Of a stretch of DNA of 64,000 bases, positions 39,268-61,731 are shown piece after piece. The translations under genes and the position numbers were made by a program. Source of the DNA: a virus (lineage: Duplodnaviria > Heunggongvirae > Uroviricota > Caudoviricetes); IMG/VR virus record IMGVR_UViG_3300029828_000006, positions 27,904-91,903 of that record. One strand, 5' to 3'. Numbering within the stretch: position 1 is the stretch's first letter; each line of letters starts with the position of its first letter. The notes under the pieces were generated by a model, which was not told the DNA's origin, searched no databases, and saw only the letters and a program-made list of their open reading frames with translations.

Positions 39268-40929
39268 ATGAGTGAGGCAGAAGCCCGCCCGACTAACTTT
39301 ATTCGTCAGATCATCGATGAAGATCTGGCCAGTGGTAAGCACACCACAGTACATACCCGTTTCCCGCCGGAACCGAATGGCTATCTGCATATTGGTCATG
39401 CGAAATCTATCTGCCTGAACTTCGGGATCGCCCAGGACTATAAAGGCCAGTGCAACCTGCGTTTCGACGACACTAACCCGGTAAAAGAAGATATCGAGTA
39501 TGTTGAGTCGATCAAAAACGACGTTGAGTGGTTAGGTTTTCACTGGTCTGGTAACGTCCGTTACTCCTCCGATTATTTTGATCAGCTCCACGCCTATGCG
39601 ATCGAACTGATAAATAAAGGCCTGGCGTATGTTGATGAACTGACACCGGAACAGATCCGCGAATACCGCGGCACCCTGACGCAGCCGGGTAAAAACAGCC
39701 CGTACCGCGACCGCAGCGTTGAAGAGAACCTGGCGCTGTTCGAAAAAATGCGTACCGGTGGTTTTGAAGAAGGTAAAGCCTGCCTGCGTGCGAAAATCGA
39801 CATGGCGTCGCCATTTATCGTAATGCGCGATCCGGTGCTGTACCGCATTAAATTTGCTGAACACCACCAGACTGGCAACAAGTGGTGCATCTACCCGATG
39901 TACGACTTCACCCATTGCATCAGCGATGCGCTGGAAGGTATTACGCACTCTCTGTGTACGCTTGAGTTCCAGGACAACCGCCGCCTGTACGACTGGGTGC
40001 TGGACAACATCACCATTCCTGTTCACCCGCGCCAGTACGAATTCTCGCGCCTGAATCTGGAATACACCGTGATGTCCAAGCGTAAGCTGAACCTGCTGGT
40101 GACCGACAAGCACGTTGAAGGCTGGGATGACCCGCGTATGCCGACCATTTCCGGTCTGCGTCGTCGTGGTTACACTGCGGCTTCTATTCGTGAGTTCTGC
40201 AAACGCATCGGCGTGACCAAGCAGGACAACACCATTGAAATGGCGTCGCTGGAATCCTGCATCCGTGAAGATCTCAACGAAAATGCCCCGCGCGCAATGG
40301 CGGTTATCGATCCGGTGAAACTGGTTATCGAAAACTACCAGGGCGAAGGCGAAATGGTCACCATGCCGAACCATCCGAACAAACCGGAAATGGGTAGCCG
40401 TCAGGTGCCGTTTAGCGGTGAGATTTGGATCGACCGCGCCGATTTCCGCGAAGAAGCTAACAAGCAGTACAAACGTCTGGTGCTGGGTAAAGAAGTGCGT
40501 CTGCGTAATGCTTACGTCATTAAGGCTGAACGCGTGGAGAAAGATGCCGAAGGCAATATCACCACCATCTTCTGTACTTATGACGCCGACACCTTAAGCA
40601 AAGATCCGGCAGATGGTCGTAAAGTGAAAGGCGTTATTCACTGGGTGAGCGCGGCACATGCGCTGCCGGTTGAAATCCGCCTGTACGATCGTCTGTTCAG
40701 CGTGCCGAACCCAGGTGCTGCGGATGATTTCCTGTCGGTGATTAACCCGGAATCGCTGGTGATCAAACAGGGTTTTGCTGAACCGTCGCTGAAAGAAGCG
40801 GTAGCGGGTAAAGCATTCCAGTTTGAGCGTGAAGGTTATTTCTGCCTCGACAGCCGCCATTCTACGGCGGAAAAACCGGTATTTAACCGCACCGTTGGGC
40901 TGCGTGATACCTGGGCGAAGTTAGGTTAA
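39268..40929 (+). CDS. glnS: glutaminyl-tRNA synthetase
   Basis: 553 aa with class I HIGH ([13 protein letters not shown]) and VMSKR (KMSKS-type) motifs; matches E. coli GlnRS recalled from memory almost throughout. Confidence 0.95.
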
Positions 40930-40953
40930 TAGGTATTTCGCCACATAAAAAAG

Positions 40954-43504: not shown

Positions 43505-44158
43505 CTATCCTTTCTTGAAATCGAAGTTGCCAGCAGTGGCCTGAAAGGTTCCTCCTGCCTTGAAAGCTATGTCTCCGTTAGCGGTGACAGCTATATTTTC
43601 CCCATTAACATTGATGTTGTTGGCTGATTTGACGTTAACACTCCCTCCTGCATTCACGATTACATCAGCCGGACCAATGATATATATCTGCCCGGACTCA
43701 TTCATGCCAATCCTTGAGCCTGCTGCCGTATTGGCAATTTCATAGCCGCCACCAGCAGTTCGTACTTCAAGAATATTGTTGCGGTGAATAACGAAGTCTT
43801 TCGTTGCTGAGATTTGGGGGCGGGGAGGTGCTCCATCTACTTCCGGCGGCGTCCAGCCGTTGCCTTTGCCAGATGCTTCTGGTGCAACGTTTGGAATTCC
43901 TCCCGGTGCATCCTGAGCGGCACCAACTATCATTGGGCGTCTGGTGTCTATTCGACCGTTAACATCTAAATAAGGAAACTCTACCCAGACCAGGTCACCT
44001 TTGACTGTAGGTACAAAAGCGTTCCCGATGGGTAACTGGTATTCCGCCCAGGGTAGATCGTCATCAGGAACGCCATTCCAGTCAGGTAAAACACGGACTT
44101 GAGCACGCATAAGCCCTGCCGGGTGCACAGTTCCAACAATTTGCGCTCTACGCTTCAT
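43505..44158 (-). CDS. baseplate spike protein (gpV/VgrG-like OB fold plus beta-helix)
   Basis: 217 aa; RAQVRVLPDWNGV...VPTVKGDLVWVEF...RPMIVGA then repetitive VNxGGxVNV beta-helical tail. Confidence 0.55.
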   Translation of the reverse strand: MKRRAQIVGTVHPAGLMRAQVRVLPDWNGVPDDDLPWAEYQLPIGNAFVPTVKGDLVWVEFPYLDVNGRIDTRRPMIVGAAQDAPGGIPNVAPEASGKGNGWTPPEVDGAPPRPQISATKDFVIHRNNILEVRTAGGGYEIANTAAGSRIGMNESGQIYIIGPADVIVNAGGSVNVKSANNINVNGENIAVTANGDIAFKAGGTFQATAGNFDFKKG

Positions 44159-45135
44159 TTGTTAGGCACTCCCAATATCATTCGTGTTGTGTAGCCTACG
44201 CGGTCCTCAAAGTGCGCAACATTTTTTACTATCAGCTTACGGGGCATTGATTCATCAATGCGGTTTTCCTGGTCATAGCGGTATACGATAATCTCTATTA
44301 CCATCCCCGGTTTTATATCAGGATTGCCTGCGACTTCTATATCCATTTTGGGGACGAGAGACAGCTGCATATTGCGAAGAGTTTCCATATCAGAGTCGGA
44401 TATATAACGCACTGGGAGTGAGCTATCGCCATATTCGACGTAGCCATCGGTCATGGAATACCCAACAAAACGATATTGATTCTTTGCTGTTGTCGCATGT
44501 TCCTGTTGGAGTAGGCGCATTTTGGACAAAGTGTATTCTGCTTTAGGGTTATTCCCCTCGTAGGTAAATGATGGCGTTTGCTTCATCAGATCAGCCAGGG
44601 TATAAAAGTTAAATTCCCCCCGACATACCCAACACAATGCACCTTTGTCTCGCGCTATCTCCGAAAGCATTTTTGACGGTTTGTCACCGGCATTCAGATG
44701 ATATGTAACTGCGCGTTTTAGCACGCTGCTGGTAATTTTAAGTTTGCCGGAATATGCCTTGAATATAGCGTCTGGTGTTTTGTTGGTATGTAAATTTGTG
44801 CGCGGGGAGGGGATCTTAAACCTGCGCACGTCTTCACTGACAGCAATAACGGTAACAACATCACCAGCCAGCATTGCAGACGTAACAAAGAAATCTGTTT
44901 TAAAAGTGCCTGCATTACCGTTTGGATCGCCCATTTCAGCCACCAGCGATGCACCGTATTTGGCTTTCCAGTCATCAATTACGGTGCCGGTAGCGTCATG
45001 AATTTCCAGTTTTAGCAAAGGGGCTTTGAGGCTGGTTTTTTCTACATATACTGCGGTAAAAATCCAGTCTCGTGGCACTTTGTTATCGTTAATGAGCACT
45101 GACTGTAGAAAATATTGTTGTAACTCCTGGGCCAC
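44155..45135 (-). CDS. hypothetical tail/baseplate protein
   Basis: 326 aa, translationally coupled to spike gene. Confidence 0.3.
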   Translation of the reverse strand: MAQELQQYFLQSVLINDNKVPRDWIFTAVYVEKTSLKAPLLKLEIHDATGTVIDDWKAKYGASLVAEMGDPNGNAGTFKTDFFVTSAMLAGDVVTVIAVSEDVRRFKIPSPRTNLHTNKTPDAIFKAYSGKLKITSSVLKRAVTYHLNAGDKPSKMLSEIARDKGALCWVCRGEFNFYTLADLMKQTPSFTYEGNNPKAEYTLSKMRLLQQEHATTAKNQYRFVGYSMTDGYVEYGDSSLPVRYISDSDMETLRNMQLSLVPKMDIEVAGNPDIKPGMVIEIIVYRYDQENRIDESMPRKLIVKNVAHFEDRVGYTTRMILGVPNK

Positions 45136-45138
45136 TTA

Positions 45139-45906
45139 TCACCCCATAGATATCGAGGTTTCGGTAATAATACGTTTTGCGTCCAACTCCCATGCTGTGA
45201 TCACGTCTGCAATCACACTTATCGGCGCTTGTGTGGCATAAATACGCTCTTCTCCAATTGGTGCTGAAACATCCGTAAAGCCGACTTCTTTGGCATCCTG
45301 TATCGAGCAAATCAGCGGGACCGGGACACGAACAAGGTGAGTGGTTGCTTCAAATTGTGTACCTGTCATCAGGCGAAGCCGTGCGCCCAGCGAATTACAC
45401 ATCAGACTCATGGTCGCTTTATCAGTTGCCATTAACGTAACGTCATACGTCAGAATGGCCTGGGTGTATTCCAGTTCTGCTAAAGGCATTCCGGTATCCG
45501 GTTCGCAAAAACTGGCTACTTTTTTGCGGTCAATCTGCTGATCATCGTTGATATAATTGATATCCATAGTGCGTGAGATATTGACCAGGGGGAGAGCATC
45601 CCGGTTAATGTTCTGGTTTTCAGGTTTTCTCCCTTGCCCGGCATTTGCGCGACGAACTGCTTTAAGAAACTCGATCGCATTGTCGAAACGGGCCACATAG
45701 ACACGCTCTGCTGGTGGACGATTCAGGAATGACGCAAAGCGTTTTTCTTCCGGCGCGGGGGCCACCAGTAAGATATCAGAAAAAATGTTGCTGATTAGCG
45801 TCGCAAACGCGTTATCCACGTTTTCAAAGCCCGTGGTCTGGAATTTTCCTGTGCGTGAGGTTTGCCATTCACCTGTTCGCGCCAGGAGGGTTTTATTTGA
45901 AGTCAT
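45139..45906 (-). CDS. hypothetical virion protein
   Basis: 255 aa. Confidence 0.3.
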   Translation of the reverse strand: MTSNKTLLARTGEWQTSRTGKFQTTGFENVDNAFATLISNIFSDILLVAPAPEEKRFASFLNRPPAERVYVARFDNAIEFLKAVRRANAGQGRKPENQNINRDALPLVNISRTMDINYINDDQQIDRKKVASFCEPDTGMPLAELEYTQAILTYDVTLMATDKATMSLMCNSLGARLRLMTGTQFEATTHLVRVPVPLICSIQDAKEVGFTDVSAPIGEERIYATQAPISVIADVITAWELDAKRIITETSISMG

Positions 45907-46706
45907 TCGATCACTCCGTTTTGAGTCGTATCAAAATTCCTGGCAGGTATGCAGTAGTAAAGCGAACCAACATGCTGTGTGCCGTAGCTAAAAATACGGT
46001 GCACGTACCACCAGCGGCGCGCTACGCCGTTTACCATCTCTTCATTCCATTCAAGAATTGAGCCGACGGGGACGTTATTTGCTGCAATACGCAGAATCAG
46101 AACATCATCGGTTAAGCCATCCTGCTCACCGTCTGCGTCAATCGCATGGAAAGAGTCACGCCCGTCAGGGTTATCCAGCACATAAACGATTTCAGGTTCC
46201 TGGTAAGTCAGTTCGCGTTGGTTGTTATCCAGTTCAGTGAATGACTCTTCTCCTGTTTCGTCGCTGACTACCCCATATGTGCCAACATCTGGTCGATATA
46301 AGAGAGCCTGAAACGCGTCTGGGCTGGATTCAATAATCAGCATCCAGTCTGCGCGGATTTGGTCGTTAAAGGCTTTATGCCCGTTATAGCGTGCTTTTAA
46401 CTGTGGAGTCGGTTCTCTGCCAGCCAGGGAAGATGGAAGTATGGCTATATCTGATTCGCCAGCATCCGGAGTAAGGCCACCGTTGCTATCAGCAAAATTA
46501 TCATGGCTATCAGCTTGGGCGGCGGGTTGCTCTTCCAGAATGCTGAATGAATCCGAACCGGTATTGCCATGTTCCGGCGCGCCTCCTGCATTCGCTTCAA
46601 TCGGCGCTGGCGTTTCTCTCTGCGTGCTGTCATGTTCTGACTCCTTACTTGCCAGGTTTGCATCGTCAGCAAACCATTCGTCAAAACGGCCCATAAGCAT
46701 CCTCAA
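45903..46706 (-). CDS. hypothetical protein with acidic disordered N-terminus
   Basis: 267 aa. Confidence 0.3.
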   Translation of the reverse strand: MRMLMGRFDEWFADDANLASKESEHDSTQRETPAPIEANAGGAPEHGNTGSDSFSILEEQPAAQADSHDNFADSNGGLTPDAGESDIAILPSSLAGREPTPQLKARYNGHKAFNDQIRADWMLIIESSPDAFQALLYRPDVGTYGVVSDETGEESFTELDNNQRELTYQEPEIVYVLDNPDGRDSFHAIDADGEQDGLTDDVLILRIAANNVPVGSILEWNEEMVNGVARRWWYVHRIFSYGTQHVGSLYYCIPARNFDTTQNGVIE

Positions 46707-46856
46707 AGGTCGATCTGTCAGGTATCGAAAGGAAGATTTTCTGGAGATTGTGATTTTGGATGAAGGAGGGGGAATTCATAAAATGCACTTGCGCACAGTG
46801 CAACGGTGCGCTATAGTTATGGCATTCGGTAATCATCACGGAGGATCAAATGACTA

Positions 46857-47159
46857 ATGACCAAAAAAATTAACATAAAGGATTTCAGGGATGCGTGGCT
46901 TGATGATTTTTTTGAATTTTCAACACCACATAGAAAGATACCTCCTGATATTCATATGACATTGTCACGGAAGTTGGACATTATCAATGCCGCAACTACC
47001 TGTAAGGATTTAAGATCACCACCAGGTAATCGGTATGAGGAACTGTCAGGGAAGCTAAATGGCTATTCATCAGTAAGGGTGAATAAGCAATATAGGTTAA
47101 TTTTTAAGTGGGTTAACGGAAAGGCCGAGGACTTGTATCTCGACCCTCACAAATACTAA
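46857..47159 (+). CDS. higB: HigB toxin (RelE/ParE superfamily)
   Basis: 100 aa, C-terminal RVNKQYRLIFKWVNGKAEDLYLDPHKY matches HigB pattern. Confidence 0.8.
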   Translation: MTKKINIKDFRDAWLDDFFEFSTPHRKIPPDIHMTLSRKLDIINAATTCKDLRSPPGNRYEELSGKLNGYSSVRVNKQYRLIFKWVNGKAEDLYLDPHKY

Positions 47160-47229
47160 AACAGATACCCGGTTACGGACCGGGTTCTGACCAGAGTCCA
47201 CTTAATACGCACGCTAGTAAGGGCAAAAA

Positions 47230-47568
47230 ATGAAACAGGCAACCAGAAAACCGACGACCGTAGGTGATATCCTGCTGTACGAATACCTGGAGCCGTTAGA
47301 GCTGAAGATCAACGAGTTAGCAGAAATACTTCATGTTCATCGTAACACCGTAAGTGCTCTTGTTAATAACAATCGTAAGCTAACGATGGATATGGCATAT
47401 CGCCTGGCAAAAGCATTCGATACTTCTGTAGATTTTTGGATTAATCTTCAGACCGCAGTAGATCTGTGGGAAGTCGAAAATGATATGCGCGTTCAGGAAG
47501 AGTTAAGTCGTATCAATACTGCTGAAAAATTTATTTCTCAGCGGAACCTGAATAAAAAAGCAGCCTGA
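47230..47568 (+). CDS. higA: HigA antitoxin (XRE-type HTH)
   Basis: 112 aa, LAEILHVHRNTVSALVNNNRKLT HTH, FWINLQ motif. Confidence 0.8.
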   Translation: MKQATRKPTTVGDILLYEYLEPLELKINELAEILHVHRNTVSALVNNNRKLTMDMAYRLAKAFDTSVDFWINLQTAVDLWEVENDMRVQEELSRINTAEKFISQRNLNKKAA

Positions 47569-47586
47569 TATAGTAAAACACATACA

Positions 47587-47618
47587 AAAAGCCCACTTAG
47601 CAAGTGGGCTTTCCTTTG
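47587..47618. terminator. terminator after higA
   Basis: aaaagcccacttagcaagtgggctttcctttg. Confidence 0.55.
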
Positions 47619-47624
47619 TAATTA

Positions 47625-47825
47625 ATGAACATTAAACCTATCCGTACAGAACAAGATTATGAGGCCGCACTGCGTGCGGTCGAACCGATGTTCGATAACG
47701 AACCGGAAATGAATACTCCGGAAGGTGATTTCTTTGAGGTTATGAGTCTTCTCATTGAGGAGTACGAGAAGAAACATTACCCAATTCAACCACCATCACC
47801 TGTTGAATCTTTTAACTATCCATAA
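47625..47825 (+). pseudogene. truncated two-domain HigA-like antitoxin (N-terminal domain only; HTH domain missing)
   Basis: 66 aa PIRTEQDYEAAL...EGDFFEVMSLLIEEYEKKHYPI then stop where the HTH domain normally follows; abrupt drop to AT-rich DNA begins here. Confidence 0.5.
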
Positions 47826-47846
47826 TAAAAGTAATCAGGATAAGCT

Positions 47847-48575
47847 ATGATGTCAGAAAAAGTTAAAGATAATCCGTCTATAAATGAAACAGAACTAAAA
47901 TCATTTTCTGAAATAATAAAAGATAAAATATTTAACAAGGTTTTTGCATATGTTGTCATTTCTTTTCTAATTTTTAACTGGAAGGATATTTTAATTATAT
48001 TAAAGTCAAAGGACGACATCCTATATACATTATCTATTGTTTCTGTTGGTGGTAATGTCCCGTTCATTGATAATTGGATTGTATCCCCGTGGGTTTATCA
48101 CGTTGTAATCCCATTTATTTATGGAGTATTTGCATCTGTGTTAGCTCCTGTTCTCACACTGAAGATATCTAAGCTAACAAGTAAATTATACACTGAAATA
48201 AGATATTTAGATGAAGTTGCTGATTATGATAAAAGAATAGAATTGCAAAGAAAGAAAACAAAGTTAAATCAAGCAACCAATGACGCTAAATATTCAAAAC
48301 AAATCTTAGATGAAAATGAAAATAAACTTAATGACTTGGTTGCGAAACAGCGAGAAATTTGTGGCGCGATAAAACTATTGCATACTGATGTTGGCAGTAT
48401 TATTGAACTATATAAAAATAAGGGGGTTAGCATTGAATCTCCGCAAGATTTATGTGATTTTATAGTCGCTATAAAAAGCACATCATTCTATAATGATGAC
48501 AAGCATTTTAATAAATTGGTGTCTGATATTTCCAGTTTGTTTGATAATACTGGAATTGATCTTTCAAAAAAATGA
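47847..48575 (+). CDS. low-GC 2-TM membrane protein with cytoplasmic coiled-coil domain (accessory gene; exclusion/defence candidate)
   Basis: 242 aa; TM helices ~33-50 and ~80-105; markedly AT-rich codon usage unlike neighbours. Confidence 0.5.
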   Translation: MMSEKVKDNPSINETELKSFSEIIKDKIFNKVFAYVVISFLIFNWKDILIILKSKDDILYTLSIVSVGGNVPFIDNWIVSPWVYHVVIPFIYGVFASVLAPVLTLKISKLTSKLYTEIRYLDEVADYDKRIELQRKKTKLNQATNDAKYSKQILDENENKLNDLVAKQREICGAIKLLHTDVGSIIELYKNKGVSIESPQDLCDFIVAIKSTSFYNDDKHFNKLVSDISSLFDNTGIDLSKK

Positions 48576-48581
48576 AAGCCC

Positions 48582-48621
48582 AGCATAAACTACTAGGCTA
48601 TGTGTGGTTTATGCTTTTTTT
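48582..48621. terminator. terminator hairpin shared by convergent genes
   Basis: agcataaac...gtttatgct followed by TTTTTTT. Confidence 0.55.
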
Positions 48622-49802
48622 ACATACTCCATGAACATTTTTTCAGCTTGTGCTGGTGGTGTTCCAGCCATGACAAGCGCATCAATGAACGCCTGCTTCT
48701 TCAGTGCGAACTGATCGGCAAGGCGTTGCTGAAGCTCCTTGTTTTTCTGTTTCTCACGTTGCAAGGCCGCTTCTTTTGCTGCCGCCCGTTTTTTCTGTGC
48801 ATCTGACAACTTTCTGGCCTTGGTCAATTGGTCACGTAGTTTGTCGATCTTGCCGTTGTCCTTTGCCAGTTTTGTACTTAAAGCTGCCTGGCGCTTCTGA
48901 TAGAGCCTCCATTCGCGTTTGGCGGCTTCAACGTTCGTTTTACTGCTACGATTGCGATTAAACTCCTTCTCGTCTTCTTTTGAGAAGTGTTTGGTTGTAC
49001 GGCGGCGATCGTCACCAAATGCAATTTGCGTTGCAGCCTTTTGTAGCGCACGAGCAATACTCATTTGCCAACTGGCGGACTGTAACCGCGTCATTGAGTG
49101 GATCACGTGTTTACAGGCGACGCCTTGCAGCTTCGGGTTGCGAACTTTTGGATAGGCGTATTCTTTTGGCGGTGCCAGGGCAAAGTTACCCGCAGTGGCG
49201 ATGTAACGATACCAGTATTGATGACGACCACAGTCACAATCGAAAGACACTCGCCCGGCGCACAGTGATTTAGTGATTTTGAGAGCTGATTTATCGTCTT
49301 CTGCGATGTCATCAACCATCTGATCCCATTCTTCAAAGCGTATCCGGACGATATGGTGCTGGTGGACGGATATATCCGATGCTTCTACGCGGATATTAAT
49401 CACATTGTGGCGAAGAGATACGGGTGTAGCTCTTTTGATACCAGATCCGTCATCCACGGCGTTATTTGCACGCTTAATATCGATTGCCTGGCTGGATGCC
49501 ACCAGCTGGGCGTATGTGATGCCAGCCGTCTTGCTGTCATATTTTTCGCGCGTTTTACTCCGTAGCTTTTCGAAACCTTTCAGGTCGTCTCGCGTGAAGA
49601 ACGTGCCGCCTTTTTTCTTCCCTAACTTGAGAATATCTTCGGCGGATTTGTTCCTCAGTCTACCTGGCGTCAGCGTCCGGTGAGCTTGTCGGCGCTTACG
49701 GGTTTGTTCTTTCCTGATAAGGTCGAATAAACGCGTGAAGTCCTTAGAGGACAGGCCGTCAGTGATATAGCGCCCGTCCTGGTTTTTCAGGAAATCAGGC
49801 AT
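48609..49802 (-). CDS. SWIM-type zinc-finger protein with basic coiled-coil C-terminus
   Basis: 397 aa; CDCGRHQYW...ACKHVIH (CxC...CxH). Confidence 0.4.
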   Translation of the reverse strand: MPDFLKNQDGRYITDGLSSKDFTRLFDLIRKEQTRKRRQAHRTLTPGRLRNKSAEDILKLGKKKGGTFFTRDDLKGFEKLRSKTREKYDSKTAGITYAQLVASSQAIDIKRANNAVDDGSGIKRATPVSLRHNVINIRVEASDISVHQHHIVRIRFEEWDQMVDDIAEDDKSALKITKSLCAGRVSFDCDCGRHQYWYRYIATAGNFALAPPKEYAYPKVRNPKLQGVACKHVIHSMTRLQSASWQMSIARALQKAATQIAFGDDRRRTTKHFSKEDEKEFNRNRSSKTNVEAAKREWRLYQKRQAALSTKLAKDNGKIDKLRDQLTKARKLSDAQKKRAAAKEAALQREKQKNKELQQRLADQFALKKQAFIDALVMAGTPPAQAEKMFMEYVKKA

Positions 49803-50124
49803 TTTCTATCTCCGGTTCCGCGCTTGCGTAATCACGGATCTTGTTCCTCAGCCATGCCACATCAGGAAGAGTTAACGTGGTCCCTGCGGGCATTTCTTCC
49901 ATTTCTGACTCATGGCCCACCAGCACCCGGAATACCCAGCGCAAATCTGCATTGCCATACGCCCTGTAGGCTGCAAGGTCTGAACGATATACTTCATCAA
50001 TCTTTATCGTGTACTGGAAATTATCAGAGTGATACTCCGATACCCGCTTAATCATTTCCTGGTGAAACAGCGCACGAAAAATATCGTCTTCAATGTACCT
50101 ATCGTCGAGTCTGCTATAGCCCAT
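49795..50124 (-). CDS. hypothetical protein
   Basis: 109 aa, overlaps downstream gene by 8 bp. Confidence 0.3.
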   Translation of the reverse strand: MGYSRLDDRYIEDDIFRALFHQEMIKRVSEYHSDNFQYTIKIDEVYRSDLAAYRAYGNADLRWVFRVLVGHESEMEEMPAGTTLTLPDVAWLRNKIRDYASAEPEIENA

Positions 50125-50452
50125 AACAAAGCCTCTCAGTCATAACCTGGGGGAAACTGTATGCAGGGTGTGAAATGCGAGAAACAGACAGGCCACCAGT
50201 TCAGGGGGATGTGGTTCATAAATCCCCTCACTGGTGACAAGTGACTTTCATTAATCTTTATGCGGGGGCCAGCTTCATTTGCTGGCATTAGATTAAAAAT
50301 CAAACGGAGTAAATGACATGGATGTTATCTTCGAATTATTAATGCTAATTGATCTGTTTATGAACGCTTCATTGACCACTCAAATACTCGCGTCAATATT
50401 TTTGTTACTCTTCTACCTGGTATTGAGGGAGTTAACAAAGCTACTAATGTGA

Positions 50453-51106
50453 TCAAAGTATCACGGTATCTTCATCAACTTCTTTCCCAGTCAGCGACTT
50501 TGGCTGGGAGGTGCCTGCTTTAACTTTTTCATGCCCAATAATGGACAGGAACGAAGCGAGTATGCCTGTTTTTTGCTCTTTCTCGACTGTACCGGTCATC
50601 TGCTCTACGTAATCCGCACTGGCAACATTGTGGTATACGGTCGCGTAGCAACACAGGATCATCAAAATATGTTCCGGCCTGATATCCTGCCAGTTCACCC
50701 GGTAAACTTCTTCTCCGTTACCGTTGTATTCGGTGTCAACGATGGAGTCGGGAATTTCGAAAGCACCTTTATTGTTTTGCGGCAGGGATAATAGCTTCTG
50801 GAGTTTTAGCTCTCTGTATCTTTCCATCCCTACGATGATCGCAGCTCTGCCGTCGGCATGACGTGTCTTGAGTGTTACCTGGCTTGCTCCGGTGCCAGCG
50901 GAGATCGTTGGCGTAATTTCGTCTACCAGCACCTTAAATTTGCTTTTCCGCAGGGCTGCTATAGCTGGAGGAATCTTTTGCTTTTGTTCCAATGCTGACG
51001 CGGGAAGGGGTTTTACTTCGTTAATCACGAGAGCACCGTCTTTCAGTATTGCAGTGAGCATTTGCGGTTTGCTGGTGGTCAGGCTGAATATTGCTATCTT
51101 CTCCAT
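50453..51106 (-). CDS. hypothetical protein
   Basis: Likely start MEKIAIF at 51106 with strong SD GGAGGAAGGA; track ORF extends to 51148. Confidence 0.35.
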   Translation of the reverse strand: MEKIAIFSLTTSKPQMLTAILKDGALVINEVKPLPASALEQKQKIPPAIAALRKSKFKVLVDEITPTISAGTGASQVTLKTRHADGRAAIIVGMERYRELKLQKLLSLPQNNKGAFEIPDSIVDTEYNGNGEEVYRVNWQDIRPEHILMILCCYATVYHNVASADYVEQMTGTVEKEQKTGILASFLSIIGHEKVKAGTSQPKSLTGKEVDEDTVIL

Positions 51107-51133
51107 TGTCCTTCCTCCACGGATGACGGATAC

Positions 51134-51165
51134 AAAAAAAGGCCGCACATGGCGGCCTGCTTTGG
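51134..51165. terminator. rho-independent terminator (minus direction)
   Basis: Reverse complement gives ggccgccatgtgcggcc followed by TTTTTTT. Confidence 0.5.
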
Positions 51166-51452
51166 CGTTATGACTCCCTACCGCGCTTCGGCTGAAAGTT
51201 AATCGTCAAAAGAACCTTCAACGGGAGCCGTTAGCGCGATGGATTATGTGCAGTTTGTGATTTCCAGAATAGTGTCAACCACTTTTTGAGGATTTTATTA
51301 TTTGACCGAAACTTGGCCTAAATCATGTTGATGTAGTTGATTGTTTTTATAACATAAAACCTCATTTTGTTTACATGAAGGACGGGGTAGTGAAGTTAAG
51401 GGTTTTAGGGACCGCGCTCGCGGCTAAGATGGTAAAGTATGGAGTTAATGAA

Positions 51453-52286
51453 ATGTTTTTTATAAAAAATGGAAAAAGATGTTCCTCAACAATACTTGCT
51501 ACTGTTGTTGCTCTCTCTGTTCCCACATTTGCCTTTGCTTATGATTTTAGCAAAATTGACTGTAATGCCCCTAAAACCAGACAGATGTTAATCGATGATT
51601 ATAATGAACTGCTGAAGGACGATCAGGAAGCAATCTCTGTAATTGATGCTTATAATCAGATCAATGAGATAAGAGAAAAAAATAAGCTCCAATGTCTGGG
51701 AACGTATGAATTCTCTGATGGAAGTGCGCTTAGGGTTAGATATAAGTTATATTTAAATAGCCTCGGCACACCCATATATGAATTTGCTCCAGTTGAGGAA
51801 TTAACGCAGGATGATGTAAGCGCATCTATTCATAATTCCCCTGCAACTCCTGCAAGCATGGCTGGACATGATAAAAAAAATAATGGTGAAACGTATGCCT
51901 GTAAGGTGGCTGTAACTTACAAGGGGGAGCGTTCTAACTATATGGGGGATTCCGGAACATGGGATCGTGTGATTACTGACTATGGCACTTATTTTTCATG
52001 GGATTTGCCACGCGGAAACCGAGGCAACAGCACAGGTCAGGATGCTTTTAGTGGCATGGACGAATCAAAGCCTGTATTAGAAAATCAGCTAGTGAGAAAG
52101 GAAACTGAAAAAGATGGTAGCGTGGTTGATGAATTTAGGACTGATGTAAGTTATGGGGAAAAACAACCAGTTCATAAGTTTGTATATGCTCGTAGAATAA
52201 AACCTACAGGCATGAGAGAGTATTATGTTACGGATTTAACAGACAAGCGGGCGTTTATGTTTCTGAATTGTCAGAGAGATTCGTGA
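51453..52286 (+). CDS. secreted protein (signal peptide), low GC
   Basis: ATG 51453 with SD GGAG; MFFIKNGKRCSSTILATVVALSVPTFAFA signal peptide; track ORF starts 51375. Confidence 0.45.
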   Translation: MFFIKNGKRCSSTILATVVALSVPTFAFAYDFSKIDCNAPKTRQMLIDDYNELLKDDQEAISVIDAYNQINEIREKNKLQCLGTYEFSDGSALRVRYKLYLNSLGTPIYEFAPVEELTQDDVSASIHNSPATPASMAGHDKKNNGETYACKVAVTYKGERSNYMGDSGTWDRVITDYGTYFSWDLPRGNRGNSTGQDAFSGMDESKPVLENQLVRKETEKDGSVVDEFRTDVSYGEKQPVHKFVYARRIKPTGMREYYVTDLTDKRAFMFLNCQRDS

Positions 52287-59636: not shown

Positions 59637-60325
59637 TCCAGGCTATGCATGAAGTGAATTTATATAGCCGTATTGATGGTTCTGGCTACAGAAACATATG
59701 GGTTGTTGGTGATCTGCATGGTTGCTACACCAGACTGATGTCCGAACTCCATCGTGTGGATTTTGACCCGGCGCAGGATTTACTGATATCGGTTGGCGAC
59801 CTTATCGATCGCGGCACCGAAAATGTTGAATGCCTGGAGCTATTGCAGATGCCCTGGTTTCGGTCGGTTATGGGAAACCACGAGCGATTAATGATCGATG
59901 CGTTAAGTCCTGATGGCAACGTGAATAACTGGCTAATGAATGGCGGGCAATGGTTCTTCATGCTGGACGCTGATCAGGAAATATTAGCCAGGGCGCTGGT
60001 GGAGCTGGTAAGACGTCTGCCCTATATCATTGAGTTGAACACCGGGCATGAAACTATCGTTATAGCCCATGCCGACTATCCAGGTGGAGAGTACCAGTTC
60101 GGTAAGGATGTGTCGCTTTTTGATGTTGTCTGGTCGCGCAGTCGCGTCGGTGATTCGATAGATGGCATTGGTGGAGAAATCACAGGCGCAGATCGCTTTA
60201 TCTTTGGGCACACACCGGTACGAAGACCAAAAGCATACTGGAATCAGCACTACATAGACACTGGCGCGGTTTTTTGCGGAAATCTGACGCTAATGCATGT
60301 GAAGGGAGGGCAGCTTAAAGTCTGA
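59633..60325 (+). CDS. Ser/Thr protein phosphatase (lambda PPase family)
   Basis: GDLHG, GDLIDRG, GNHE motifs; ATG 59633 overlaps previous stop (ATGA); track ORF starts 59603. Confidence 0.8.
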
Positions 60326-60351
60326 TCAAATCATTTACGCACTCAAAATAC

Positions 60352-60382
60352 GTTAGAACATTGATTTTAGTTTTCTAACATA
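60352..60382. promoter_or_regulatory. operator-like inverted pair (GTTAGAA ... TTTTCTAACATA) upstream of 60423
   Basis: Motif family. Confidence 0.4.
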
Positions 60383-60422
60383 TTATTTTACCACTCGGAA
60401 CAAAACAGAGTCGGTATGCATT

Positions 60423-61418
60423 ATGAGTGCAATAATCACCCCATATGTCGTAAATGAAACTGGTGTGGCTGTCTTTCCTGTAGATAAGCCCACCAGCAAT
60501 TACATCGGCGCAGGACGCCGTTTTCTTATATCCCCATTGCCGCGCGAACAGGTTGAAAACACCCCTGATGGCGTCGTGGACCTGAATTATTCCCTGGTTG
60601 CCAACCAGTCACTGACACCCTTTTTTCAAAGTGAGCGCGTATTTAATGCGTTAGGTGGTGAGGATTCTATCGTTCACTGGGTTAGCACCAACATTCACGA
60701 TTGCCAGGCGCATGATAAGCGTGATTGTAGCCACCAGCTAACCACTCACTTCTATAACGGTTCTGCCGTTCGCCTGTGCTGGAAGCATGATGCGGAATAC
60801 ATGATGAAGGGGTACGGCAAGCTTGACGACCAGCTATCCCTGAATCGCGCCAACTGGATTATGAACTGGGCCGCCAGCGAGTTAAAACTTCCGCCAGACC
60901 GCGATCTTAGCATGGTTGAACTCACCTTTTGGGCCATTCGCCGGAATCTTAAAGACGAGCTACCTGATGAAGCTGGTCGCATTGCATTTTGTCAGCCAAA
61001 GCCTGAGATCCCTACAGGCACTCTGAAAGAGTCGGATATCACCTGGGAGCACAGCACCCGCGAGCTGGTGGATATTACCGCAGAGCAGATCGTCAACCTG
61101 TCTGTAGATGAAGATTCCGGCCTGCTTTATATGCGCCGACCAAAAACGGTCCTCGGTAAAAGCCCGGCTTATCTCCGGTTTGTGGTTTCTCGTCCGTGCA
61201 TCGGATGCGGTGGAAAAGTTAATCACCCGTTCATGTACCGCGCCCGCTCGTTAAACGAACACGATCGCTGGGCTGTTCCTCTTTGCGATGAATGCGCCAG
61301 AAGCGCAGAAAACGATGTCCGGGCATGGGAAAAAACGCATGGCATACGCCTTTACGTAGCCGCTAACCAGCTTTTCGATTTCGCCATCGAGCGCGGAGTG
61401 ATCACGTTCAATAACTGA
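60423..61418 (+). CDS. hypothetical protein with Cys/His zinc-binding-like cluster
   Basis: 331 aa; CIGCGG...HPF...PLCDEC. Confidence 0.3.
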   Translation: MSAIITPYVVNETGVAVFPVDKPTSNYIGAGRRFLISPLPREQVENTPDGVVDLNYSLVANQSLTPFFQSERVFNALGGEDSIVHWVSTNIHDCQAHDKRDCSHQLTTHFYNGSAVRLCWKHDAEYMMKGYGKLDDQLSLNRANWIMNWAASELKLPPDRDLSMVELTFWAIRRNLKDELPDEAGRIAFCQPKPEIPTGTLKESDITWEHSTRELVDITAEQIVNLSVDEDSGLLYMRRPKTVLGKSPAYLRFVVSRPCIGCGGKVNHPFMYRARSLNEHDRWAVPLCDECARSAENDVRAWEKTHGIRLYVAANQLFDFAIERGVITFNN

Positions 61419-61431
61419 TGGGAACAATGCA

Positions 61432-61731
61432 ATGAGTCAAGGTAATGGTGACGGAGCTGCAAAGTGCAGAATCTCCACTTGTTTGATTAATGACAAAAAA
61501 ATAGAACCGTGCGCGGCGTTGGCACAATCCCTGGAGCAGGATGCTGAATACACGACGCGGAAAGGTCTGCTGAAATACAAAATCTATAACCATGAATTAA
61601 TTCATTCACAAGACCTGATCATGCTGCGGTCAGGCGAGCTTTCTAAATCGCCGATTCGAATTTCATTTTGCCCGTTCTGTGGTGAAAGTCTGAAAACGTG
61701 GGAAGCGGAGGCAACCAGTGATCAAAATTAA
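61432..61731 (+). CDS. small hypothetical protein
   Basis: 99 aa, CPFCG motif. Confidence 0.3.
   Translation: MSQGNGDGAAKCRISTCLINDKKIEPCAALAQSLEQDAEYTTRKGLLKYKIYNHELIHSQDLIMLRSGELSKSPIRISFCPFCGESLKTWEAEATSDQN

What the first reader, a model, noticed from the sequence alone, without database searches (positions are those of the whole stretch)
48609..50124. SWIM zinc-finger protein module of unknown function in the accessory patch
A 397-aa protein with a CxC...CxH SWIM-type finger and a long basic coiled-coil tail, translationally linked to a 109-aa partner, sits between the low-GC insertion and other unassigned genes. It does not fit an obvious phage morphogenesis role.
Basis: seen in the sequence. 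Interest (0 to 1): 0.4.

Follow-up and report, generated by a model that had tools for sequence, protein, structure and literature searches.

The report
Phage P1 gene-25-type zinc-finger assembly protein
These two genes are the phage D6 copies of phage P1's virion-assembly genes 26 and 25, not an accessory module, but gene 25's product, whose role has never been explained, does carry a conserved SWIM-like zinc finger and is encoded beside head-to-tail joint genes in many phages.

Summary
ORF 48609-49802(-) encodes a 397-aa protein with pI 10.1. It overlaps the 109-aa ORF 49795-50124(-) by 8 nt. It carries an invariant CxC-x38-CKH motif and a long basic helix.

The window is a D6-like P1-family phage-plasmid, 99.7% identical to D6 here. 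The pair are the annotated orthologues of P1 genes 26 and 25. Gene 26 encodes a LysM-type baseplate protein that has been solved in P1 baseplates. Gene 25 is labelled "tail stability" from amber mutants. Both belong to the core late operon 26-25-7-24-6-5. In D6 a low-GC toxin-antitoxin/defence block splits that operon.

New here:
- The family is large (685 clusters at 50% identity) and uniformly basic.
- Its tightest link is to the next gene, the acidic stopper gp7, usually with a 1- or 4-nt overlap.
- Short homologues sit in neck gene blocks of Gram-positive myophages (hhalign 98%).

P1 gp25 is weakly detected in virions and is absent from all solved P1 structures. My best reading is a low-copy or transient factor in head-tail joining, at about 0.5 confidence. 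The gene itself is already known.

The parts
49795..50124 (-). Orthologue of P1 gene 26 (D6 orf75). A 109-aa acidic (pI 4.8) LysM / T4 gp53-like inner-baseplate protein, called 'plug' in the P1 structure paper, present in 6 copies.
   Evidence: phrog_1269 at 2.3e-36. phmmer matches P1 Gp26 chains 9ay5_S/9vzk at E 1e-16. D6 annotation. P1 baseplate structures (PMC12810830 and bioRxiv 10.1101/2025.07.21.665459).
48609..49802 (-). Orthologue of P1 gene 25 (D6 orf74). A 397-aa protein with pI 10.07. Layout: N-terminal basic helices, a beta-sheet plus SWIM-like Zn-finger core, a long basic helix, and a small C-terminal helical motif.
   Evidence: 99.5% amino-acid identity to D6 orf74 and 57% to P1 gp25 over residues 1-334. 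phrog_1722 at 4e-197. 685 clusters (at 50% identity) match at E<=1e-3. AF2 model has pLDDT 84.3 and pTM 0.73.
49068..49445 (-). Core domain, residues about 120-245: three beta strands, helices and the zinc finger. This is the part shared with the short homologues in Gram-positive myophages.
49107..49238 (-). Putative Zn-binding signature C189-D-C191 ... C230-K-H232, together with the conserved 38-residue loop GRHQYWYRY..G..PxE..PK.RNP.L.G between the two halves. This is the most conserved stretch of the protein.
   Evidence: Invariant columns in A1, A3 and A5. Spacing is 36-38 in 42 of 43 members. Pfam SWIM scores 13.6 bits, but only after 27 residues of the loop are removed.
48669..48932 (-). 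Long basic helix, residues 291-378, with 24 K+R against 11 D+E. Its sequence and length vary between homologues. There is a weak heptad pattern.
   Evidence: AF2 secondary structure. Composition. Heptad test. Variable columns in A3. The P1 record notes similarity to the myosin II heavy chain.
49795..49802 (-). 8-nt overlap ATGCCTGA: the stop codon of the gene-26 homologue lies inside the start of the gene-25 homologue. GGAG lies upstream.
   Evidence: Sequence read directly.
48577..48599 (-). Terminator-like hairpin followed by a T-run, 10 nt after the gene-25 stop codon, at the junction with the inserted block.
   Evidence: Consensus scan: 9 pairs, tail TTCATTTTTT. Sequence. Function not tested.
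46857..48575 (+). Context. A low-GC block on the opposite strand that separates gene 25 from gene 7 in D6. It holds a HigB-like toxin, a HigA antitoxin, a truncated PD-Lambda-2_B-like ORF and a 242-aa protein of unknown function.
   Evidence: Genes 25 and 7 are adjacent in P1 and in 35 of 39 related loci.
45903..46706 (-). Context. Orthologue of P1 gene 7, the stopper of the head-tail connector. It is strongly acidic (net -31). In most relatives it is the gene translationally coupled to gene 25.
   Evidence: phmmer matches P1 Gp7 chain 9ums_B at 6e-43. PMC12810830. Charge and adjacency statistics.
43505..45906 (-). Context. Orthologues of P1 genes 24 (tail terminator), 6 (baseplate hub) and 5 (spike), which form the rest of the operon.
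   Evidence: PHROG matches. D6 annotation. Roles in P1 from PMC12810830.

Best explanation
The two ORFs are core late morphogenetic genes of a D6-like, P1-family phage-plasmid.

The 109-aa protein is the LysM-type inner-baseplate protein gp26. This is shown.

The 397-aa protein is the orthologue of P1 gp25. It belongs to a large family of strongly basic proteins built around a SWIM-like Cys2-Cys-His zinc finger. This is shown by homology, invariant ligands and a predicted fold. Zinc binding itself is inferred.

I infer that gp25 acts at the head-tail joint (the neck) rather than as a tail or baseplate brick. In this reading it is made together with the acidic stopper gp7. It binds gp7, and possibly the DNA end held in the connector channel, through its basic zinc-finger core and helices. 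It is needed for the filled head's connector to be completed so that the tail, capped by the terminator gp24, docks stably. It would stay in the virion only in a few flexible or asymmetric copies, or leave after assembly.

In D6 the ancestral 25-7 coupling has been broken by an inserted toxin-antitoxin/defence block.
For: Orthology and morphogenetic role:
- Megablast gives 99.7% identity to D6. The D6 record annotates the genes as 'similar to P1 gene 25' and 'similar to P1 gene 26'.
- tblastn gives 57% identity to P1 gp25. PHROG matches are to tail families.
- P1 gene 25 is labelled 'tail stability' in the P1 record. The label is attributed to Lobocka et al..
- The P1 operon LP26-26-25-7-24-6-5 is annotated.

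SWIM-like core:
- Invariant C-x-C...C-K-H.
- Pfam SWIM is the only recurring family (4 of 43 members).

Neck association:
1. In 39 loci, including IMG/VR contigs that share only about 30-40% identity with the distant query used to find them, gene 25 is directly followed by the gene-7 homologue in 35. In 28 of those the overlap is 4 or 1 nt. Gene 26 directly precedes gene 25 in only 28 of 38 loci.
2. P1 gp7 is the connector stopper and gp24 the tail terminator (PMC12810830). Genes 7 and 25 carry the same 'tail stability' label, and gene 24 is 'baseplate or tail stability'.
3. Short homologues (hhalign 98.6% and 98.2%) lie inside neck blocks. These are Bacillus phage HSE3, Streptococcus phage GXN1 and two metagenomic contigs. 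The gene order there is adaptor (T4 gp13-like), then the SWIM protein, then tail-completion and sheath-stabilizer proteins, then sheath and tube.
4. Charges are complementary. gp25 homologues have pI 9.3-10.65 and average about +34. gp7 homologues have pI 4.05-4.73 and average about -24.

Low copy or transient presence:
- P1 gp25 gave 2 peptides (8.4% coverage) in purified virions, similar to gp7, which is present in 6 copies.
- It is absent from the P1 connector, tail and baseplate models and from the PDB by sequence.
Against: - No direct evidence places gp25 at the neck. It was not seen in any P1 reconstruction.
- In P1-like genomes the same operon also holds baseplate genes (26, 6, 5), and the gene is translationally coupled to gene 26 in D6. 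Synteny alone is therefore ambiguous.
- I could not show that the genes downstream of the short homologues, or of the Acinetobacter phage ABMM1 homologue, are gp7 homologues (hhalign probability about 0.2%).
- The net charges of gp25 and gp7 do not co-vary significantly (Spearman -0.26, p 0.13).
- CRISPRi knock-down of P1 gene 25 lowered plating only about 10-fold and the gene was scored non-essential (PMC10695390).
- I could not read the primary description of the amber-mutant phenotype (Walker & Walker 1983). I rely on labels in later papers and records.
- Zinc binding and the model's metal-site geometry were not checked.
Confidence: 0.5

Rival explanations
1. gp25 is a baseplate or tail assembly factor that works with its upstream partner gp26, the LysM protein. 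For example, it could be a chaperone or a transient hub/wedge assembly cofactor, like the roles proposed for T4 gp26 and gp51. Loss of it would give unstable tails.
For: - The 8-nt overlap with the gene-26 homologue in D6.
- Gene 26 directly precedes gene 25 in 28 of 38 loci, including Acinetobacter phage ABMM1.
- Acidic gp26 (pI 4.8) against basic gp25.
- The historical 'tail' label and the PHROG 'tail protein' name.
- Gonzales et al. suggest that gp7, gp16 and gp25 may be chaperones or cofactors (PMC9024508).
Against: - The 26-25 link is looser than the 25-7 link. Other genes are inserted between 26 and 25 in about 10 of 38 loci.
- gp26 homologues are not consistently acidic (pI 4.05-9.42).
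- Xanthomonas phage Rb1 and the short Gram-positive homologues have no adjacent gp26-like gene and lie in neck blocks upstream of the sheath and tube genes, with the baseplate genes beyond those.
- The label 'tail stability' was also given to gp7, which turned out to be a head-side connector protein.
Confidence: 0.2
2. gp25 is a virion-internal DNA-binding protein. It would bind the genome end in the unusually wide P1 connector channel, acting as a plug or end-holder. It would be ejected with the DNA, as a functional analogue (not a homologue) of T4 gp2 or Mu N.
For: - Net charge about +30 across the family, with conserved Arg, Lys and aromatic residues in the finger loop.
- Low-level presence in virions without any ordered density.
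- The P1 connector channel is about 40 A at its narrowest, wider than in Mu, E217, Pam3 and phiTE (PMC12810830).
- In T4, the basic end-protector gp2 (pI 10.1) is encoded next to the head-completion gene 4, the terminator gene 3 and gene 53. This arrangement mirrors 26-25-7-24.
- P1 abortively transduced DNA is reported to be circular with its ends joined by a protein (PMC8593670).
Against: - No homology to T4 gp2 (hhalign probability 0.08%).
- SWIM domains often mediate protein-protein rather than DNA contacts. This rests on my own knowledge of Shu2/Sws1, MEKK1 and ZSWIM8.
- The ends of P1 and D6 DNA are rich in Chi sites, and P1 is thought to use RecBCD for circularisation. That argues against capped ends (bioRxiv 10.1101/2021.07.08.451572).
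- No DNA-binding data exist.
- The GXN1 homologue is acidic overall (pI 5.0).
Confidence: 0.12
3. One reading: an accessory or defence (phage-exclusion) or regulatory nucleic-acid-binding module that is not needed for virion morphogenesis. The 'MvaT' annotation of the Rb1 homologue would fit a regulator.
For: - It lies next to a low-GC toxin-antitoxin/defence block.
- It is basic and carries a zinc finger.
- The Rb1 homologue is annotated 'transcriptional regulator MvaT'.
- CRISPRi scored P1 gene 25 as non-essential.
Against: - GC content is 0.51 across 49001-50000 against 0.38 for the insert.
- It is conserved, in a fixed place among structural genes, in every P1-like genome examined and in distant myophages.
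- The 'tail stability' label comes from amber mutants with morphogenesis defects.
- It was detected in virions.
- Only one marginal PADLOC match (E 0.007, on the helical tail), and no Pfam H-NS/MvaT or HTH match.
Confidence: 0.03

Closest known systems
Phage P1 gp25 ('tail stability' protein; PHROG 1722/4315)
   Same: Direct orthologue. 57% identity over residues 1-334, the same length, the same operon position after gene 26, and the same helical C-terminal tail.
   Different: The C-terminal ~60 residues have diverged. In D6 the gene is cut off from gene 7 by an inserted block and is followed by a terminator-like hairpin. The mechanism of P1 gp25 is itself unknown.
SWIM zinc-finger domain (Pfam PF04434; e.g. 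ZSWIM8, Shu2/Sws1, MEKK1, MuDR/FAR1)
   Different: The spacer between CxC and CxH is 36-38 residues and is itself highly conserved. From memory of Makarova et al. 2002, the classical spacer is about 6-25 residues. No member reaches the Pfam gathering score. I found no paper in the searched library that links SWIM to a phage virion or assembly protein.
T4 head-completion / DNA end-protector proteins gp4 and gp2
   Same: A comparable genomic setting next to the gp53-like, terminator and neck genes. gp2 is similarly basic (pI 10.1). Both are low-copy and linked to head-tail joining (the T4 roles come from the record's annotation).
   Different: No sequence or profile similarity. gp2, gp4 and gp3 lack the Cys/His motif. 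This is an analogy only.
Tail-completion and neck accessory proteins of other phages (lambda gpZ, SPP1 gp16.1, P2 gpR/gpS; PHROG 'tail completion or Neck1')
   Same: Low-copy proteins encoded between the connector and sheath/tube genes, whose loss gives non-joining or unstable tails. This rests on my own knowledge. The short SWIM homologues sit next to such genes.
   Different: No homology was detected. Those proteins are small, lack zinc fingers and lack a long basic helix.

Membership tests
P1 gp25 family (PHROG 1722) | Full-length sequence homology to P1 gp25 | tested here: met
   phrog_1722 at E 4e-197 over residues 2-396. tblastn gives 57% identity to P1 gp25. The D6 record annotates the gene as similar to P1 gene 25.
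P1 gp25 family (PHROG 1722) | Position in the late operon 26-25-7-24-6-5 | tested here: met
   Same order on the - strand of the window. A 1.9-kb + strand block is inserted between genes 25 and 7.
P1 gp25 family (PHROG 1722) | Loss of function gives a tail-stability / morphogenesis defect | not testable with these tools
   Known only from the P1 amber-mutant literature as relayed by PMC9024508 and the P1 record. CRISPRi gave an efficiency of plating of 0.11.
SWIM zinc finger (PF04434) | CxCxnCxH signature with conserved ligands | tested here: met
   C189, C191, C230 and H232 are invariant in A1, A3 and A5.
SWIM zinc finger (PF04434) | Short spacer (about 6-25 residues) between CxC and CxH | tested here: not met
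   The spacer is 36-38 residues in 42 of 43 members and 42 in the other. The classical range is quoted from memory of the original description.
SWIM zinc finger (PF04434) | Score above the Pfam gathering threshold (19.6 bits) | tested here: not met
   No hit on the native protein. 13.6 bits after artificial removal of 27 loop residues. 4 of 43 members match, best E 0.01.
SWIM zinc finger (PF04434) | SWIM-type fold: beta strands carrying CxC packed against a helix that starts at CxH | tested here: met
SWIM zinc finger (PF04434) | Binds one zinc ion | not testable with these tools
LysM-type inner-baseplate protein (P1 gp26 / T4 gp53-like), for the 109-aa ORF | Homology to P1 Gp26 as built in the baseplate structures | tested here: met
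   phmmer E 1e-16 to 9ay5_S/9vzk over residues 4-99. phrog_1269 at 2e-36. Pfam Phage_gp53 and Phage_tail_X match only weakly (E about 0.05).
T4 gp2 DNA end protector | Sequence or profile homology to T4 gp2 | tested here: not met
   hhalign probability 0.08%.
Anti-phage defence systems (PADLOC) | Match to a defence-protein model | tested here: not met
   Only PDC-S66 at E 0.0072 on the helical tail for gp25, and nothing for gp26.

The most novel reading that the evidence does not exclude
The gp25 family is a previously unrecognised class of neck-lumen, SWIM-zinc-finger DNA-end-binding proteins. A few copies would hold the first-ejected genome end in the wide connector channel of P1-type myophages. 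They would leave with the DNA. Through the dimerising basic helix they could tie two DNA ends together. This would identify the long-unknown protein that joins the ends of P1 abortively transduced DNA.
Probability: 0.1. Interest if true: 0.7.

Novelty: already known. Interest (0 to 1): 0.33.

Why it matters
P1 is the classical transducing phage, and two recent cryo-EM studies assign nearly every virion protein. gp25 remains unplaced, although it is labelled as a tail-stability gene and has been detected in virions. Showing that gp25 is a conserved SWIM-like zinc-finger protein gives a concrete hypothesis for this missing piece, because the protein is very basic, is genetically tied to the acidic stopper gp7, and has relatives inside the neck gene blocks of unrelated myophages. 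The hypothesis can be tested by point mutants, head-versus-tail complementation and asymmetric reconstruction of the neck. For genome annotation, the result warns against two errors. One is reading this gene as an accessory or defence gene because a toxin-antitoxin/defence block has inserted next to it. The other is calling it a regulator, as in the 'MvaT' annotation of the Xanthomonas phage Rb1 homologue.

Tried and rejected
- PDB sequence searches with the protein, the family profile (A3), the core profile (A5) and the two Gram-positive homologues found nothing meaningful.
- Pfam and NCBIfam gave no hit on the native protein.
- Homology to T4 gp2 was rejected. T4 gp4 and gp3 were inspected and lack the motif.
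- I tested whether the genes downstream of the short homologues and of the ABMM1 homologue are gp7 homologues. hhalign probability was about 0.2%. This is inconclusive, because each target was a single sequence.
- Charge co-variation between gp25 and gp7 was not significant.
- An apparent 896-aa 'fusion' ORF in L102 is a wrong-frame artefact of high-GC DNA. My greedy ORF caller also missed the Rb1 gene for the same reason.
- A search of the paper library for 'SWIM', 'zinc finger', 'bacteriophage', 'virion' and 'tail' together found nothing relevant.
- Lobocka 2004, Walker & Walker 1983 and Gilcrease & Casjens 2018 are not held in the library. The mutant phenotype is therefore second-hand.
- I did not pursue P1-type late-promoter motifs upstream of D6 genes 26 and 7. 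The sequences were read but no reliable consensus was to hand.
Full report
**1. What is in the sequence**

One is 49795..50124(-), 109 aa. The other is 48609..49802(-), 397 aa.

They overlap by 8 nt, ATGCCTGA. A GGAG lies 9 nt before the downstream ATG, so translational coupling is plausible.

The 397-aa protein has pI 10.07, with 84 K+R against 48 D+E. Its only cysteines apart from C181 form the pattern C189-D-C191 ... C230-K-H232.

AlphaFold2, run with a 32-sequence alignment, gives a confident model (pLDDT 84.3, pTM 0.73). It shows a mixed alpha/beta core and a single long helix at 291-378, followed by a short terminal helix. The long helix carries a modest heptad signal: a/d occupancy is 0.46 against 0.33 ± 0.04 in shuffles. 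'Coiled coil' remains a reasonable but unproven reading of the tail.

**2. What the locus is**

Megablast shows the 1516-bp region is 99.7% identical to Escherichia phage D6, a P1-like plasmid prophage.

The D6 record annotates the two genes as orf75 'baseplate wedge subunit, similar to P1 gene 26' and orf74 'tail protein, similar to P1 gene 25'. Downstream it annotates homologues of P1 genes 7, 24, 6 and 5, and upstream a homologue of mat.

PHROG profiles agree. The 397-aa protein matches phrog_1722 'tail protein' at 4e-197. The 109-aa protein matches phrog_1269 'baseplate wedge subunit' at 2e-36.

In P1 the six genes 26-25-7-24-6-5 form one block behind the late promoter LP26. In D6 a 1.9-kb low-GC block on the opposite strand sits between genes 25 and 7. 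Its GC is 0.38 against about 0.47-0.51 around it. It holds:
- a HigB-like toxin;
- a HigA antitoxin (TIGR02607, 8e-30);
- a short ORF that matches the N-terminus of PD-Lambda-2_B;
- a 242-aa protein of unknown function.

So the 'accessory patch' is an insertion into a core operon. The flagged genes are not part of it.

**3. What is known about the two proteins in P1**

P1 gp26 was modelled on T4 gp53 and built as six copies in two independent baseplate reconstructions. These are bioRxiv 10.1101/2025.07.21.665459 and PMC12810830, where it is called the plug. The D6 protein matches those PDB chains (9ay5, 9vzk) at E 1e-16.

P1 gp25 is different. It carries the label 'tail stability'. Gonzales et al. 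found it in purified virions with only two peptides (8.4% coverage). That is comparable to gp7, with two peptides and 11.1% coverage. They report no HHpred match above 50% and an unknown function, and suggest it could be a chaperone or cofactor (PMC9024508).

The whole-virion cryo-EM paper lists the proteins it could assign. These include gp7 as connector stopper, gp24 as tail terminator, gp6 as hub and gp5 as spike. gp25 is not among them.

No PDB chain matches gp25, whether I search with the single sequence or with family profiles.

CRISPRi knock-down of P1 genes 25 and 26 lowered plating about 10-fold, and both were scored non-essential. The authors flag that amber mutants exist for both genes (PMC10695390).

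**4. The zinc finger**

C189, C191, C230, K231 and H232 are invariant in three alignments:
- 32 homologues of 44-88% identity;
- 43 homologues reaching 22% identity;
- a core alignment that includes two Gram-positive phage proteins.

The 36-38-residue spacer is itself the most conserved part of the protein, with consensus GRHQYWYRY.AT.G...P.E..FPK.RNP.L.G..CKH.

Pfam's SWIM model does not hit the native sequence. It scores 13.6 bits, against a gathering score of 19.6, only if 27 spacer residues are removed. Among 43 family members it is the only Pfam family that recurs, in 4 members with best E 0.01.

I conclude that the core is SWIM-like, with a family-specific conserved loop. It does not meet Pfam's formal criteria. 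Zinc binding itself is inferred.

**5. Distribution and gene neighbourhood**

A profile search of 1.84 billion cluster representatives found 685 clusters at E<=1e-3 and 353 at E<=1e-10. Most listed proteins are 330-450 aa.

Among isolated phages the family occurs in the P1 group, D6, Cronobacter phage JK004, Acinetobacter phage ABMM1 and Xanthomonas phage Rb1.

I fetched 160 IMG/VR loci. I then clustered the ORFs of 39 loci that carry the gene: D6, P1, ABMM1 and 36 distant IMG/VR loci.

The recurring order is (TerS-like)-TerL-mat-26-25-7-24-6-5-(major capsid protein).
- Gene 25 is immediately followed by the gene-7 homologue in 35 of 39 loci. In 28 of those the overlap is 4 or 1 nt.
- Gene 26 immediately precedes gene 25 in 28 of 38 loci, and other genes are inserted there in several lineages.
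- The exceptions to 25-7 adjacency are D6 itself, two loci with inserted genes, and ABMM1, where the next gene is not recognisably gp7.

The gp25 homologues are uniformly basic, with pI 9.3-10.65 and a mean net charge near +34. The gp7 homologues are uniformly acidic, with pI 4.05-4.73 and a mean near -24. The other operon members are not consistently charged. The two charges do not co-vary significantly.

**6. Short homologues in neck modules**

tblastn with the ABMM1 protein also hit two large Gram-positive myophages.
- Bacillus phage vB_BceM-HSE3 gp067 is 181 aa.
- Streptococcus phage vB_SagM-GXN1 has an unannotated 289-aa ORF.

Both carry C.C...PAKITNP..G.ACKH. They align to the family profile with hhalign probabilities of 98.6% and 98.2%.

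In HSE3 the gene lies between the major capsid protein and the sheath gene. The order is: adaptor Ad2 (phrog_211), an unknown protein, the SWIM protein, an unknown protein, 'tail completion or Neck1' (phrog_222), 'tail sheath stabilizer' (phrog_227), sheath, tube. GXN1 shows the same placement between 'neck protein' and 'tail sheath'.

Two metagenomic short forms repeat it.
- One contig runs T4 gp13-like, three genes, the SWIM protein, four small genes, sheath, T4 gp19-like tube.
- The other runs the SWIM protein, three small genes, sheath, tube.

Three of the four short forms are basic (pI 9.6-9.8). GXN1 is acidic. The conserved unit is thus the beta-sheet plus zinc-finger core, and its conserved address is the head-tail joint gene block.

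**7. Mechanism I consider most likely**

Shown:
- orthology to P1 gp25 and gp26;
- membership of a core late operon;
- an invariant Cys2-Cys-His signature in a SWIM-like predicted fold;
- family-wide basicity;
- the tight 25-7 gene coupling;
- the neck-module location of distant homologues.

From the literature:
- gp7 is the stopper and gp24 the terminator;
- gp25 is weakly present in virions but unresolved;
- genes 7 and 25 share the 'tail stability' label, and gene 24 is annotated 'baseplate or tail stability'.

Inferred: gp25 works at head-tail joining. I think it binds the acidic stopper, and possibly the DNA end in the connector channel. That channel is about 40 A wide in P1, wider than in four other myophages. 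On this view gp25 is needed to finish a connector to which the terminator-capped tail can attach stably. It would remain only in a few disordered copies or leave after assembly. I put this at about 0.5.

Rivals:
- A gp26-linked baseplate or tail assembly cofactor, 0.2.
- A true DNA-end-binding, ejected protein, 0.12. It is attractive because P1 abortive transductant DNA has its ends joined by a protein (PMC8593670). It is weakened by the lack of any homology to T4 gp2 and by the Chi-rich, RecBCD-dependent ends of P1 and D6 DNA.
- An accessory, defence or regulatory function, 0.03.

**8. Comparison, novelty and verdict**

The gene pair is already catalogued: D6 orf74/orf75 and P1 genes 25/26. 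As a genomic feature it is 'already known', and the claim that it is outside morphogenesis is wrong.

Three things do not appear in the papers I could search:
- the SWIM-like nature of the gp25 family;
- its size and uniform charge;
- its conserved coupling to the stopper and to neck modules in unrelated myophages.

This gives a modest, testable lead on one of the last unplaced P1 proteins linked to the virion. Interest 0.33.

Noticed in passing
window 46857-48575 (+ strand): A low-GC (0.38) block inserted between genes 25 and 7. It holds a HigB-like toxin (100 aa), a HigA antitoxin (TIGR02607, 8e-30), a 66-aa ORF matching the N-terminus of the defence protein PD-Lambda-2_B (2.5e-16), and a 242-aa protein of unknown function (phrog_8191). 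It looks like a defence/addiction island sitting inside a structural operon.
   Followed up: partly
window 47807-47915 versus D6 NC_050154 (L001 10999-11307): The window is not identical to the D6 reference. A 309-nt stretch of D6 orf72 ('transcriptional regulator', 119 aa) is replaced by 109 nt, which leaves only the 66-aa ORF 47625-47825. Identity over 47916-52000 as a whole is only 93%, although the gene 25/26 part is 99.7% identical.
   Followed up: partly
window 48577-48599 (-) and 46784-46802 (-): Terminator-like hairpins lie directly after the gene-25 stop and just upstream of gene 7. If they are functional, the insertion has split the ancestral 26-25-7-24-6-5 transcript, and genes 7-24-6-5 need their own promoter in D6.
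   Followed up: no
window 50453-51148 (-) and loci L086-L153: The mat ('maturation control') homologue (phrog_1837, no Pfam match) is conserved in 30 of the clustered loci. In many distant relatives it sits directly after the large terminase and before gene 26. Its role is as unexplained as that of gene 25.
   Followed up: no
window 45903-46706 (-): The D6 stopper (gp7) homologue has a long, very acidic and probably disordered N-terminal extension. Only residues 102-260 align to the P1 Gp7 chain 9ums_B. gp7 homologues are strongly acidic throughout the family, with pI 4.05-4.73.
   Followed up: partly
L003 7800-8879 (Xanthomonas phage Rb1, PQ569993): The gp25 homologue is annotated 'transcriptional regulator MvaT'. 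It carries the full CxC...CKH core and lies next to the major capsid gene, so this is probably a mis-annotation.
   Followed up: partly
L167 6518-7387 (Streptococcus phage vB_SagM-GXN1, PQ819873): An unannotated 289-aa ORF in the neck region is a SWIM-core homologue. That record annotates only 40 features in 176 kb.
   Followed up: partly
P1 genes 25 and 26 (literature): CRISPRi against P1 genes 25 and 26 reduced plating only about 10-fold. Polar effects on the downstream genes 7, 24, 6 and 5, which were scored essential, would have been expected. This hints at incomplete knock-down or at internal promoters in the operon (PMC10695390).
   Followed up: no
D6 record 59925-61586 (about window 39270-40930): The D6 annotation lists a phage-plasmid-encoded glutaminyl-tRNA synthetase (GlnS-like) a few kb from the tail operon. 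I did not examine it in the window.
   Followed up: no
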